Shown piece by piece: positions 16,569 through 18,358 of a DNA stretch of 45,982 bases. Origin of the DNA: Candidatus Kaiserbacteria bacterium (GTDB lineage: Bacteria; Patescibacteriota; Minisyncoccia; Phycocordibacterales; UBA2100); the NCBI GenBank assembly GCA_027066795.1, contig JAMONA010000013.1, forward strand, positions 1 through 45,982, given 5' to 3'. The notes below the pieces were generated by a model. It saw only the letters and a program-made list of their open reading frames with translations. It had not been told where the DNA came from and made no database searches. Position numbers and translations under genes: made by a program. Each line of letters opens with the position of its first letter. The stretch's first letter is position 1.

Positions 16569-16597
16569 AAAAAAGCGAGGCAACGCCTCGCTTTTTT
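16569..16597. terminator. bidirectional rho-independent terminator (orphaned terminator of the membrane-protein gene?)
   Basis: AAAAA-GCGAGGC-aac-GCCTCGC-TTTTTT. It lies 19 nt past the stop codon of the duplicated gene-end fragment at 16616-16671. Confidence 0.8.
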
Positions 16598-16620
16598 ACT
16601 TACTTATTTATATTACTATT

Positions 16621-16671
16621 TAAAGCACTTGAGGTACCAGAGTGATATAATCTGTATTACTATGGCTACAA
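16621..16671. repeat. left 51-bp direct repeat (copy of the 3' end of CDS 17927-18358)
   Basis: 47/51 identical to 17941-17991 at a constant offset of 1,320 bp. The perfect core is 38 bp (16626-16663). Confidence 0.95.
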
Positions 16672-16699
16672 GCATCTAACTATTTAGCTGTAAAAATAT

Positions 16700-16729
16700 A
16701 ATTAAACTTGCATGAACGCAAGTTTAATT
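16700..16729. promoter_or_regulatory. 12-bp perfect inverted repeat abutting the cassette promoter -35 (candidate operator)
   Basis: AATTAAACTTGC-atgaac-GCAAGTTTAATT. Confidence 0.4.
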
Positions 16730-16755
16730 GTCATTTATAGAAAATGTGCTATATT
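16728..16755 (+). promoter_or_regulatory. sigma-70-type promoter with extended -10 for CDS 16822-17865
   Basis: TTGTCA, 16 nt, (TGTGc)TATATT. The SD GGAAGGAGG lies at 16805-16813. Confidence 0.55.
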
Positions 16756-16821
16756 CATAAGTAGAAAATACTACAGTCATAAAACACAAAACTTTTAAAC
16801 CTTAGGAAGGAGGTTAGTCCG

Positions 16822-17865
16822 ATGAATACATGTATACATGGAATACAATCTAAATTGTGTGGTTACTGCAACGGCACAAAAAAAGTGGGGTCTAGAATAA
16901 ATGTCCCTAAAAATATACCGAGTAATGAGAGCTTAGTTAATGCAGCCGCAGCCCTAACCAAAAAAGAACTACCTGTAAATAACGCAATATCTATTCGACC
17001 AAAACGAGGACACCCAAGCCTTGTTCAATTAGGGCCGAATATAACTTTCATTCACTTCCTTGAGCGACCGGCAATATGGCTAATTGAGGAAGTGTTAGCA
17101 AAATGCCCAAATCTTAAGACCGTTCAATTCTTACCTAATATGTTAAGCAGCATATCTCCGGCCCAAAAAGAACTCCTCTCGAACAAAAAAGTAAACTTTA
17201 CTTCTGGACACTGGAAACCAGAAGCAGCATGGGCTGGGCCGCGTATCCTTAGTCCAGACTATCATGTTAAAAAAGAGTTCTTGATGGATCTAAGTGGAGA
17301 CCAACTTAAATTGTTCCAAGAACTTTTGGACCTCGGGTTTGATGAAGCTCTGTTGGCCTCAAGGTACTTTTGTTTAAAAGGAGAGGACTTTATAAGTCAA
17401 CGAGAGTGCTCCGAAAAGTTCGATCTAAACTTTAAAATAAAAGCAATTGGAGGGAGCTTGTTCATCAATGCAGTAATTTCTTATCTTGACCCCCACTTCA
17501 AAGTATCAAATGATACCAAACTAAAGATGGAGACTATGCGCAAGTCTGTGTTCAGAATACGGGAAATGTTGCAAAATAAAAACGAAATGGATAACTTATT
17601 ATCCGAACTGCAAATAACAAAACTCCCAGACAACCTGACACTCTCAAAAATAGAAAAATTTAGTTCTATTTGCAAAGCTTACAACTCTGGACAACTCTCG
17701 TTACTTAAGGAGAAGCGCCATGCTGAGATACTTACCCAACGCTGGGGTCTAAATAACGGTTGTTTTAAAACACTGGAAGCTGTAGGCGAACTTTTTAGTG
17801 TTACAAGAGAGCGCATAAGGCAAATCGAGGCAGAATCTTTAGATACACTGCGTATAATAGACTAG
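16822..17865 (+). CDS. protein with a C-terminal sigma-70 region-4 HTH; the N-terminal 290 aa are unrecognised (CxH..CxxC start)
   Basis: The C-terminus ...HAEILTQRWGLNNGCFKTLEAVGELFSVTRERIRQIEAESLDTLR closely matches region 4.2 of primary sigma factors. The N-terminus reads MNTCIHGIQSKLCGYCNG. Strong SD. Confidence 0.8.
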   Translation: MNTCIHGIQSKLCGYCNGTKKVGSRINVPKNIPSNESLVNAAAALTKKELPVNNAISIRPKRGHPSLVQLGPNITFIHFLERPAIWLIEEVLAKCPNLKTVQFLPNMLSSISPAQKELLSNKKVNFTSGHWKPEAAWAGPRILSPDYHVKKEFLMDLSGDQLKLFQELLDLGFDEALLASRYFCLKGEDFISQRECSEKFDLNFKIKAIGGSLFINAVISYLDPHFKVSNDTKLKMETMRKSVFRIREMLQNKNEMDNLLSELQITKLPDNLTLSKIEKFSSICKAYNSGQLSLLKEKRHAEILTQRWGLNNGCFKTLEAVGELFSVTRERIRQIEAESLDTLRIID

Positions 17866-17893
17866 TACAAAACCGATCTTTACTAACAAACTT

Positions 17894-17925
17894 GACTACG
17901 ATTTTCATATCGTAGTCATTTTTTT
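17894..17925 (+). terminator. rho-independent terminator of the cassette ORF
   Basis: GACTACGAT-tttcat-ATCGTAGTC followed by ATTTTTTT. Confidence 0.8.
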
Positions 17926-17926
17926 A

Positions 17927-18358
17927 TTAAAATTTCAAACTAAAACACTTGAGGTACCAGAGTGATATAATCTGTATTACTATTGCCATAACCACCATCT
18001 CTACAGCATAGTGTGTAAAGTAGCCTAGTGAACCAGCCGGTAACAATGATGCAAATACCACACTACCAAACAAGGCTCCACAGAGTGGTCCACCTACACC
18101 ACACATCTGTAATGCTATGAAGCCCAAGGCAGTTCCAATGATGCCAAATATGCCAGCGCCTTGTGCCTTAGCTGTATTAGCTCTGTGCCTCATAACCTTC
18201 ACGAGGCATGTCATGTTTAGAGAAAAAACTATTATAAATACCAATCCAAGATAAACATATGGACCGTTAAGTATGTGACTAGGTAAAATAAATAAGGCAA
18301 GCAAAAAAGCTACAGTAAAAACAACTACTGATACAACATCATTAAACAATGCCTTCAT
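17927..18358 (-). CDS. integral membrane protein (about 4 TM), unknown function
   Basis: Hydrophobic segments throughout, with a conserved-looking QMCGVGGPLCG stretch. Its last codons form the right direct repeat. Confidence 0.65.
   Translation of the reverse strand: MKALFNDVVSVVVFTVAFLLALFILPSHILNGPYVYLGLVFIIVFSLNMTCLVKVMRHRANTAKAQGAGIFGIIGTALGFIALQMCGVGGPLCGALFGSVVFASLLPAGSLGYFTHYAVEMVVMAIVIQIISLWYLKCFSLKF
17941..17991. repeat. right 51-bp direct repeat (authentic 3' end of CDS 17927-18358)
   Basis: See the left repeat at 16621-16671. Confidence 0.95.

What the first reader, a model, noticed from the sequence alone, without database searches (positions are those of the whole stretch)
16569..17991. 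1,320-bp single-gene cassette bounded by 51-bp direct repeats that duplicate the 3' end of the adjacent membrane-protein gene
16621-16671 and 17941-17991 align at a constant offset of 1,320 bp. They match at 47 of 51 positions, with a 38-bp perfect core (16626-16663 = 17946-17983).

The right copy is the real 3' end of the minus-strand CDS 17927-18358 (...IISLWYLKCFSLKF*). The left copy, read in the same frame, would end ...SLWYLKCFK* (TAG at 16616-16618). A strong terminator (16569-16597) follows it 19 nt later. That terminator currently sits, apparently uselessly, between two divergently oriented genes. So the left copy looks like the ancestral gene end plus its terminator, now orphaned.

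Between the repeats is a self-contained expression unit: a 12-bp inverted repeat, a promoter, a strong SD, one 347-aa ORF and its own terminator.

This is the footprint of a site-specific insertion into a gene 3' end that regenerates the target, as with attL/attR of integrative elements. However, the element is only 1.3 kb and carries no integrase or transposase. It is therefore either trans-mobilised, a remnant, or a cassette type I cannot name.
Basis: partly seen in the sequence, partly recalled or inferred. Interest (0 to 1): 0.72.

Follow-up and report, generated by a model that had tools for sequence, protein, structure and literature searches.

The report
Strain-variable single-gene insertion at gene end
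A 1.3-kb stretch carrying one regulator-like gene has recently been spliced into the tail of a small membrane-protein gene of a tiny-genome bacterium. It left a 38-base duplicate of the gene tail on each side, and near-identical strains without it still exist. It is a clean example of a recombinase-less insertion, though which enzyme moved it is not known.

Summary
Positions 16626-16663 and 17946-17983 are identical (38 nt), with 47/51 and 60/71 matches over the wider repeats. This pair occurs only here in the 528-kb genome.

- A contig from another study, about 99.7% identical, joins 16625 directly to 17946. This is a precise empty site.
- Four more distant relatives have membrane gene, then terminator, then mraZ, with nothing between.
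- All five homologous proteins end ...CFK, CLKK, CFRK or CWK, like the left (orphaned) copy and unlike the present ...CFSLKF end.

In the probable source sample the insert unitigs have about 40% of the flank depth, and the core unitig depth equals flank plus insert. That implies a mixed population. A separate k=141 assembly also carries the integrated form, so it is not a graph artefact.

The cargo (347 aa) has four parts: a zinc knuckle, a DUF1699_N-like alpha/beta domain, a helical domain and a sigma-70 region 4. No recombinase or nuclease likeness was found. The genome's only site-specific recombinase is Xer-like, and RecA is present. Similarity continues in diverged form beyond the core, so this is not a target-site duplication.

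Best reading: a Campbell-type single crossover, catalysed in trans. Whether by RecA or a tyrosine recombinase is unresolved. Interest is moderate.

The parts
16037..16471 (-). mraZ, first gene of the division/cell-wall cluster (rsmH, ftsL, ftsI follow leftward). Context gene whose promoter region is left intact by the insertion.
   Evidence: Pfam MraZ, E 8.6e-38. ORF list. The promoter region 16472-16555 is collinear with relatives.
16565..16601 (.). Bidirectional intrinsic-terminator-like hairpin (17-bp perfect stem, A-run and T-run). It is the ancestral terminator of the membrane gene, now separated from it by the insert.
   Evidence: (I2). In the empty-site contig of run X2 it lies 24 nt beyond the core. 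A terminator-like hairpin sits at the same place in L026 and L028.
16604..16674 (-). Left repeat copy: the orphaned ancestral gene end (B' side, 16604-16625), the 38-nt core, and the start of the element arm (P side, 16664-16674). In the gene's frame it reads MLVAIVIQIISLWYLKCFK*, preceded by an in-frame TAG.
16626..16663 (.). 38-nt perfect core, left copy. This is the crossover region.
   Evidence: In run X1 it forms its own 38-nt unitig of depth 14.8.
16637..16665 (.). Imperfect palindrome inside the core: 11-nt arms with 9/11 complementary and a 7-nt spacer. This is the layout of a tyrosine-recombinase core site. It is a lead only.
   Evidence: 2.5% of random 60-nt genome windows do as well; no similar second site in the genome.
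16693..16736 (.). Inverted repeat (19-nt arms, 84% complementary, with a perfect 12-bp centre) overlapping the -35 of the cassette promoter. It may be an operator, or a terminator for minus-strand read-through.
   Evidence: (I3).
16728..16755 (+). Promoter-like site of the cassette gene: TTGTCA, 16 nt, TATATT, with TG before the -10.
   Evidence: 10 of 12 matches. This is a consensus match only.
16804..16813 (+). Shine-Dalgarno-like AGGAAGGAGG, 8 nt before the ATG.
   Evidence: Read.
16822..17865 (+). Cargo gene of 347 aa. It has a zinc knuckle (C4, H6, C13, C16, invariant in 54 homologues), a DUF1699_N-like alpha/beta domain (residues ~45-136), a helical region-3-like part and a sigma-70 region 4 (residues 299-344). 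It has no sigma region 2.
17893..17918 (+). Terminator hairpin of the cassette gene (10-bp stem followed by a T-run). It lies 9 nt beyond the new stop codon of the convergent membrane gene.
   Evidence: (I11).
17924..17994 (-). Right repeat copy: the element-supplied new gene end (P' side, 17924-17945, coding ...SLKF*), the 38-nt core (17946-17983) and the resident gene body (B side).
17927..18358 (-). Target gene: a 143-aa multi-pass membrane protein of no known family, with a conserved GF-ALQMCG-GGPLCGA motif. Its last residue, K, has been replaced by SLKF.

Best explanation
A 1,320-bp unit (1,282 unique bases plus one copy of a 38-bp core) is a recent, strain-variable insertion into the last codons of a small membrane-protein gene. 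The host is a 0.53-Mb, CPR/Patescibacteria-like bacterium.

The topology is that of a Campbell-type single reciprocal crossover. The incoming DNA carried a diverged copy of the gene's tail (P-core-P'). It recombined with the resident tail (B-core-B') inside a 38-bp stretch of identity. The gene now ends in element-supplied sequence (...CFSLKF* instead of ...CFK*). The resident end and its strong terminator were displaced 1.3 kb away, just upstream of the untouched mraZ promoter.

The unit is a self-contained expression cassette with promoter, SD, one ORF and terminator. Its product is a DNA- or RNA-polymerase-binding-type protein with a sigma-70 region 4, not a recognisable recombinase. The recombination must therefore have been done in trans by host functions.

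I slightly favour RecA-type homologous recombination over the genome's single Xer-like tyrosine recombinase. RecA-type recombination also explains loss of the unit by deletion between the two repeats.

Shown: the repeat, the empty allele, the ancestral state in relatives, and the integrated form in two assemblies. Inferred: the circular intermediate, the enzyme, the mixed population from unitig depths, and the function of the cargo.
For: Repeat and uniqueness.

Empty sites and ancestral state:
- A 1,207-nt contig in run X2 (another study) has 3 mismatches and joins 16625 to 17946, giving B-core-B'.
- L026/L027, L028/L029 and L065 have membrane gene, then about 150 nt, then mraZ. The left copy, terminator and mraZ promoter align with them.
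- All five homologues end CFK, CLKK, CFRK or CWK, like the left copy.

Mixed population in run X1:
- Flank unitigs have depth 8.9-10.4 and insert unitigs 3.6-4.4.
- The 38-nt core unitig has depth 14.8, which equals 10.4 + 4.4. If every cell carried the insert the expectation would be about 20.

Integrated form is real: an ENA contig named k141_... of 72,859 nt carries it, with 3 mismatches and no gap over 6,432 nt.

SNP backgrounds: the filled allele occurs with 15925T/19067T (window) and with 15925C/19067C (L155). The empty X2 allele shares the C/C background.

Not a target-site duplication: in-register similarity continues outside the core at 15/22 (P 0.0036) and 7/11 (P 0.012). None of about 200,000 random 33-mer pairs reaches 22/33.

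No recombinase on the unit.

Host functions: one Xer-like tyrosine recombinase, no serine recombinase found, and RecA present.

Cargo gene is accessory: full-length homologues occur in only 2-3 of 401 genomes of the phylum and in none of 40 close relatives.
Against: - No circular or attP form was seen, and raw reads were not available. Only k=31 contigs could be laid, and these cannot resolve a 38-nt repeat.
- The depth argument rests on per-contig mean depths. The tool warns that these are not shares of cells.
- A 38-nt perfect block flanked by about 33% divergence is odd for a simple diverged homologue. It needs either earlier integration and excision cycles or gene conversion.
- The cargo family shows no comparable flanking repeats at seven other loci, so this is not a recurrent element type.
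- Consensus assemblies of mixed strains can be chimeric, which weakens the SNP-background argument.
Confidence: 0.72

Rival explanations
1. Site-specific integration catalysed in trans by a tyrosine recombinase. This could be the host's single Xer-like enzyme, as for IMEX elements. It could also be the integrase of a helper element absent from this assembly, as for cis-mobilizable elements (CIMEs). The 38-bp core would be the att core.
For: - The attL/attR-like architecture with regeneration of a gene's 3' end is typical of integrase-driven elements (established knowledge). CIMEs are defined as keeping attL/attR while lacking integration and transfer genes (PMC6323972).
- The core holds an 11-7-11 imperfect palindrome with 9/11 complementary arms.
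- A Xer-like recombinase is encoded in the genome.
Against: - The palindrome is only marginally unusual (P 0.025), and there is no second similar site in the genome.
- The site lies in a coding region with no GC-skew switch nearby, so it is not a chromosomal dif.
- No dedicated integrase was found in a genome that is 94% complete.
- The core or an attP form was not found anywhere else.
Confidence: 0.3
2. Replacement followed by deletion. A foreign segment (membrane-gene 3' part plus the cargo gene) from a related lineage replaced the resident sequence. It joined by homologous recombination on the right and by an illegitimate join near 16676 on the left, leaving the resident gene tail as a relic. 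Gene conversion then made the 38 nt identical. The 'empty' alleles of near-identical strains are secondary deletions between the two repeats.
For: - Both arms outside the core look like diverged orthologous gene-tail sequence.
- An in-frame stop sits right where similarity ends on the left copy.
- Deletion between 38-bp direct repeats is an easy event when RecA is present.
Against: - It needs four events where the Campbell model needs one.
- The empty allele's tail (B') matches the tail type of all relatives, and the empty layout is the one seen in all other species.
- In X2 the gene body right up to the core is identical to the window's.
Confidence: 0.1
3. The 347-aa protein is itself the recombinase of a minimal self-integrating element.
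For: - It is the only gene on the unit.
- It has an invariant zinc knuckle and a C-terminal HTH.
- Archaeal DUF1699_N proteins are often fused to resolvase-type HTH_7 domains.
Against: - No structural or sequence likeness to serine or tyrosine recombinases, DDE or HUH enzymes. The N-domain gives only generic Rossmann-like matches at Z 6.3 or lower.
- No conserved Ser, Tyr or acidic triad stands out among the invariant residues.
- Seven other loci with family members have no flanking gene-end repeats.
Confidence: 0.05
4. Assembly artefact. The 1.3 kb is a separate small circle sharing 38 nt with the chromosome and was wrongly threaded into the contig.
For: A k=31 graph of run X1 cannot tell the integrated form from an empty chromosome plus a free circle, because unitigs break at the core.
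Against: - A second assembly, whose contig name indicates k=141, contains the integrated form and differs from the window at three SNPs. A 141-mer spans the whole core and both flanks.
- The fused ORF ending SLKF exists in that contig.
Confidence: 0.04

Closest known systems
Cis-mobilizable elements (CIMEs) of Streptococcus, e.g. those in the 3' end of fda
   Same: Both are flanked by attL/attR-like direct repeats in the 3' end of a gene, carry no integrase and no transfer genes, and have an intact empty site in other strains (definition from PMC6323972).
   Different: - CIMEs derive from ICE/IME families whose integrase recognises the same att sites. No such family or integrase was found here.
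- The unit here is far smaller, at 1.3 kb with one gene.
- The repeats here are a diverged homologous stretch with a perfect centre.
IMEX elements (integrative mobile elements exploiting Xer, e.g. CTX-phi, TLC, the gonococcal genetic island)
   Same: No recombinase of their own. The host Xer enzyme is the only site-specific recombinase available. There is a palindromic candidate core site.
   Different: IMEX elements integrate at the chromosomal dif site at the replication terminus (established knowledge). This site is a coding 3' end with no skew switch, and no dif-like twin was found.
Campbell-type single-crossover integration of a circular DNA by homologous recombination, as with suicide plasmids
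   Same: It produces exactly this product: the insert flanked by direct repeats of the shared homology, with arms that differ wherever the two partners differed. It is reversible by recombination between the repeats. RecA is present.
   Different: Natural examples with only 38 bp of identity and a 1.3-kb circle lacking a replication function are not a described class. The source of the circle is unknown.
Integron gene cassettes
   Same: A single ORF of about 1 kb that is mobile as a unit.
   Different: There is no attC, attI or IntI. The cassette has its own promoter. The repeats are copies of the target gene's end.
Sigma-70 family proteins and DUF1699 proteins (for the cargo)
   Same: - Region 4 scores above Pfam's cut-off. 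It shows 45% identity to the S. aureus sigma-A domain 4 in the structural alignment.
- The N-domain matches archaeal DUF1699_N models at TM 0.68.
   Different: - No region 2 was detected, so it cannot be called a sigma factor.
- The domain combination defines its own family of about 190 clusters, with no studied member found.

Membership tests
Integrase-type integrative element (prophage, ICE or IME) | Direct repeats (attL/attR) bounding the element | tested here: met
   38-nt perfect core within 71 nt at 85% identity.
Integrase-type integrative element (prophage, ICE or IME) | Intact attB (empty site) in other strains | tested here: met
   The X2 contig joins 16625 to 17946. Empty sites are present in L026, L028 and L065.
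Integrase-type integrative element (prophage, ICE or IME) | Element-encoded integrase | tested here: not met
   The single ORF has no hit to integrase, resolvase or transposase models or folds.
Integrase-type integrative element (prophage, ICE or IME) | Excised circular form with attP | not testable with these tools
   Only k=31 contigs were available, and these cannot resolve the 38-nt core. The core is absent from the public collections.
CIME (cis-mobilizable element) | attL/attR retained, with integration and transfer genes lacking | tested here: met
   Definition from PMC6323972.
CIME (cis-mobilizable element) | A related ICE or IME with a cognate integrase using the same att site | tested here: inconclusive
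   The only tyrosine recombinase found in the genome, which is 94% complete, is Xer-like. No serine recombinase was found. No other occurrence of the core was found.
IMEX | Integration at the chromosomal dif site | tested here: inconclusive
   The site lies inside a CDS end with no GC-skew switch. An 11-7-11 palindrome is present at P 0.025. The genome's dif site is not known.
Transposon or insertion sequence | Transposase, terminal inverted repeats, and a short exact target duplication with unrelated flanks | tested here: not met
   No transposase was found. No inverted repeat joins the two ends of the insert. The repeat is 38 nt, with diverged homology continuing on both sides.
Integron gene cassette | attC site, a neighbouring intI/attI, and a usually promoterless ORF | tested here: not met
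   The repeats are gene-end copies. The cassette has its own promoter-like site. The Xer-like protein scores 128 bits against a 265-bit cut-off for integron integrase.
Sigma-70 family sigma factor (cargo protein) | Region 4 (-35 and flap binding) | tested here: met
   PF04545 scores 34.5 bits against a cut-off of 24.1. 4g6d gives Z 8.7, rmsd 2.3 over 62 aligned residues.
Sigma-70 family sigma factor (cargo protein) | Region 2 (core binding and -10 recognition) | tested here: not met
   No PF04542 hit. Residues 45-136 instead form a DUF1699_N-like alpha/beta domain.

The most novel reading that the evidence does not exclude
The unit is a minimal, active integrative cassette that needs no integrase of its own. 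Either its single zinc-knuckle/sigma-4 protein directs or performs recombination at the palindrome in the core, or it recruits the host's lone Xer-type enzyme to a non-dif site. Either would be a new way for ultra-small CPR genomes to gain and lose single genes.
Probability: 0.12. Interest if true: 0.85.

Novelty: new variant of a known kind. Interest (0 to 1): 0.5.

Why it matters
CPR/Patescibacteria genomes are tiny and poor in classical mobile elements, and how they exchange genes is little understood. This locus catches a single-gene gain or loss in progress. Filled and empty alleles are present in strains about 99.7% identical, and probably within one sample. The ancestral state is documented in relatives, and the junction structure fixes the topology of the event.

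It gives a concrete, testable case of integrase-less integration at a gene end. It also points to an unstudied protein family (zinc knuckle, DUF1699_N-like domain and sigma region 4) that behaves as an accessory gene and may act on transcription. If the event is merely RecA-mediated, it is an ordinary, well-documented islet.

Tried and rejected
- **Dispersed repeat:** rejected. There are only two copies in the genome and none in three public collections.
- **Target-site duplication:** rejected because the flanks outside the core are similar in register. A gapped local-alignment shuffle test of the same flanks was not significant (P 0.07 and 0.44), so only the in-register test supports this.
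- **Recurrent element type:** I looked for flanking gene-end repeats around family members in L021, L024, L025, L062, L064, L159 and L160 and found none. L159 shows only a genome-type terminator repeat.
- **Viral origin of the cargo family:** the viral contig scan returned only sigma region 4 matches. The scan pattern came from region 4, so this is weak evidence.
- **Defence system membership:** only a region 4 match to MzaA.
- **Recombinase fold in the N-domain:** I folded it alone (pLDDT 85) and searched. The best Z was 6.3, to CoA-binding-like and DRTGG small alpha/beta proteins. Foldseek gave nothing at E <= 0.001. A PDB sequence profile search gave nothing.
- **dif-like twin of the core palindrome in the genome:** none found.
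- **The 380-aa gene at the same site in L030:** unrelated to the cargo and without repeats.
- **Literature on DUF1699:** four papers contain the term, all on human FAM83/casein-kinase topics by their titles and abstracts. No study of this prokaryotic family was found.
- **Insert in run X2:** the insert region has almost no cover apart from short, partly unlike pieces. I do not count this as evidence of absence beyond the bridging contig itself.
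Full report
**1. The observation**

The sequence is as described. Positions 16626-16663 and 17946-17983 are identical over 38 nt at an offset of 1320. Ungapped similarity runs over 71 nt (16604-16674 vs 17924-17994, 85%). No dinucleotide shuffle of the window gives such a pair.

The whole assembly is 528 kb in 44 contigs and 94% complete, and the window is contig C13. Its only other exact direct repeat of 24 nt or more within 20 kb lies on another contig. The core itself occurs only twice. It is absent from the metagenome, species-genome and viral contig collections. It is therefore neither a chance match nor a dispersed repeat.

**2. Anatomy**

All neighbouring genes are on the minus strand. 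In transcription order they are:
- Vut_1 transporter (19228-19911)
- flavodoxin-like protein (18649-19218)
- PspC-domain protein (18415-18645)
- the 143-aa membrane protein (17927-18358, no Pfam family)
- the insert
- a 17-bp-stem hairpin with A- and T-runs (16565-16601)
- mraZ-rsmH-ftsL-ftsI

Inside the insert, on the plus strand, are:
- an inverted repeat (16693-16736) overlapping a promoter-like site (16728-16755)
- a strong SD-like sequence (16804-16813)
- a 347-aa ORF (16822-17865)
- a hairpin with T-run (17893-17918)

The right repeat copy codes the present end of the membrane protein (...SLWYLKCFSLKF*). The left copy, in the same frame, reads MLVAIVIQIISLWYLKCFK*, preceded by an in-frame TAG.

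**3. Which state is ancestral**

The membrane protein has five homologues at 61-71% identity among 5.8 billion proteins. All end ...CFK, CLKK, CFRK or CWK. That is the left copy's ending, and none has SLKF.

In their contigs the gene is followed after about 150 nt by mraZ (L026/L027, L028/L029 and the short L065). An alignment shows the window's left copy, its stop codon, the terminator and the mraZ promoter region to be collinear with these empty sites. The promoter region carries GTGG-type boxes spaced at 10 nt.

**4. The insertion is recent and polymorphic**

Two public runs hold the region. Only Logan contigs (k=31) could be laid.

In run X2, from another study, a 1,207-nt contig with three mismatches covers 15642-16625 and continues at 17946-18161. 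This is a precise empty site (B-core-B') in a strain about 99.7% identical.

In run X1, a hydrothermal-vent metagenome and probably the source sample, the unitigs break at the core as expected:
- flank unitigs have depths 8.9, 9.9 and 10.4
- the two insert unitigs have depths 3.6 and 4.4
- the 38-nt core unitig has depth 14.8

That last value equals flank plus insert. It is not the twofold flank depth expected if every genome carried the insert. I infer that about 40% of this population is filled. The tool warns that contig depths are not cell shares, so this is an inference.

A k=31 graph cannot distinguish the integrated form from an empty chromosome plus a free circle. However, an ENA contig named k141_265282 (72,859 nt) contains the integrated form. 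It differs from the window at three SNPs over 6,432 nt, without gaps. A k of 141 requires words spanning the whole core and both flanks.

The filled allele thus occurs on two SNP backgrounds, 15925T/19067T and 15925C/19067C. The empty X2 allele shares the second background. This suggests either recombination among strains or repeated gain and loss. Consensus assemblies of mixtures can be chimeric, so the point is weak.

**5. Nature of the repeats**

Outside the perfect core the two copies remain similar in register. The stop-codon side matches at 15/22 and the gene-body side at 7/11. Composition-preserving shuffles give P 0.0036 and 0.012, and none of about 200,000 random 33-mer pairs from the window reaches 22/33. 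A gapped local test of the same flanks is not significant.

The empty allele shows which arms are resident: B is the right copy's gene-body side and B' is the left copy's stop side. The other two arms (P, P') therefore came with the insert, and they look like a diverged copy of the same gene tail.

This is the product expected from one reciprocal crossover between P-core-P' on incoming, presumably circular, DNA and B-core-B' on the chromosome. It is not what a staggered-cut target duplication gives. No inverted repeats join the insert's ends.

**6. The cargo**

The 347-aa protein scores for Sigma70_r4 (residues 299-344, 34.5 bits) and weakly for DUF1699. Precomputed Pfam lists PF28505 DUF1699_N.

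An exhaustive profile-free search finds about 190 cluster representatives at E <= 1e-10, mostly about 350 aa. In 54 aligned members C4, H6, C13, C16 and W137 are invariant.

The AlphaFold model (pLDDT 88.7) shows:
- a zinc knuckle and a disordered linker
- a four-stranded alpha/beta domain (residues ~45-136) matching archaeal DUF1699_N models (TM 0.68). In the PDB it matches only generic small Rossmann-like proteins at Z 6.3 or lower
- helical domains resembling sigma regions 3 and 4 (4g6d, Z 8.7, 45% identity over 62 residues)

Region 2 is absent, so it is not a sigma factor proper. Nothing resembles a serine or tyrosine recombinase, a DDE or HUH enzyme, or a homing nuclease. Defence and phage libraries match only region 4.

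The family is patchy. No full-length member occurs in 40 close relatives, and it occurs in 2-3 of 401 genomes of the phylum. At seven other loci members are stand-alone genes between unrelated housekeeping or accessory genes, without gene-end repeats.

I infer a transcription-related accessory protein that binds DNA or the polymerase flap through region 4. Its function is untested.

**7. Who did the recombination**

The genome encodes one tyrosine recombinase. It scores for XerD, XerC and XerA and sits next to exonuclease III rather than in an island. No serine recombinase was found. RecA is present.

The core contains an 11-7-11 imperfect palindrome (16637-16665, 9/11). This is the layout of a tyrosine-recombinase core site, but 2.5% of random windows do as well and no twin site exists in the genome. 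The site is not at a GC-skew switch.

From established knowledge, RecA pathways can use about 25-30 bp of identity, so 38 bp is enough for rare integration and for deletion between the repeats.

I therefore commit to a Campbell-type crossover catalysed in trans. RecA is slightly favoured over the Xer-like enzyme or an absent helper's integrase. A replacement-plus-deletion history and a self-encoded novel recombinase are less likely rivals. An assembly artefact is unlikely.

**8. Consequences**

The membrane protein's last residue (K) becomes SLKF. Its strong terminator is replaced by the cassette's hairpin, which lacks a T-run in the membrane gene's direction. Read-through antisense to the cargo gene is therefore possible. 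The orphaned terminator still shields the intact mraZ promoter.

**9. Comparison and novelty**

The closest described kinds are:
- CIMEs, which are att-flanked with no integrase (PMC6323972)
- IMEX elements, which use host Xer
- plain Campbell integration by homology

This locus fails or leaves open at least one defining feature of each element family: no cognate integrase family was found, and the site is not dif. It meets none of the defining features of integron cassettes or transposons.

It is best filed as a new variant of a known kind: a minimal, integrase-less, single-gene integrative islet in a CPR-type genome, documented with both alleles. Interest is moderate (0.5). It would rise sharply if a circle junction or fixed crossover points showed an active, dedicated mechanism.

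Noticed in passing
L030:6434-7576: In a more distant relative (membrane protein 61% identical), the same spot between the membrane gene and mraZ holds a different 380-aa gene on the gene's own strand. It has no Pfam, NCBIfam, PHROG or PADLOC hit, is unrelated to the 347-aa cargo, and has no flanking repeats. The spot may be a hotspot for gene gain.
   Followed up: partly
window 16472-21976; L147 (G002), L149 (G001): The stretch between ddl and mraZ varies within the genus. G002 goes from ddl straight to mraZ. G001 has tRNA-Ala and Vut_1 in between. This genome has tRNA-Ala, rhodanese, Vut_1, flavodoxin-like, PspC, the membrane gene and the insert. Relatives L026 and L030 additionally have Band_7 and GlmS.
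   Followed up: partly
window 16480-16555 (minus strand): Upstream of mraZ there are four GTGG(G/T) boxes spaced at 10 nt, conserved in L026 and L028. This resembles the repeated boxes bound by MraZ in E. coli (from memory, not tested). The insertion leaves them intact.
   Followed up: no
window ~34000-36500: GC skew changes sign from about -0.2 to about +0.05, and AT skew flips too. The cumulative skew minimum lies near 35 kb. This may be a replication origin, or just a change of gene orientation.
   Followed up: no
G000 contig C4, 16027-16064 and 16291-16328: This is the only other exact direct repeat of 24 nt or more within 20 kb in the genome: 38 nt, spaced 264 nt. It is probably an internal repeat of a gene.
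   Followed up: no
L159:1040-1076, 1701-1741, 2928-2966: In another metagenomic contig, three copies of a ~40-nt GC-stem terminator-like palindrome bound two consecutive single genes (a 2',5' RNA ligase-like gene and a homologue of the 347-aa protein). The layout looks like a cassette array, but it may be just that genome's common terminator.
   Followed up: no
L062:4001-6437: The closest homologue of the cargo protein (P0082, 36% identity) lies convergent with ftsZ-ftsA. With the mraZ neighbourhood here, two of nine loci seen sit beside division genes. A weak structural match of the N-domain to the division regulator SteA (Z 4.8) was also seen. This may be coincidence.
   Followed up: no
L157, L158: The small membrane protein family, with its conserved GF-ALQMCG-GGPLCGA motif and two conserved cysteine pairs, has 35%-identical relatives in a Woesearchaeota MAG and a Microgenomates MAG. 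It is a family of unknown function shared by ultra-small bacteria and archaea.
   Followed up: no
window 15925, 17981, 18083, 18092, 19067: These strain SNPs distinguish the window, the ENA k141 contig, and runs X1 and X2. 17981 T>C in X2 lies inside the core and changes I126 to M in the membrane protein.
   Followed up: partly
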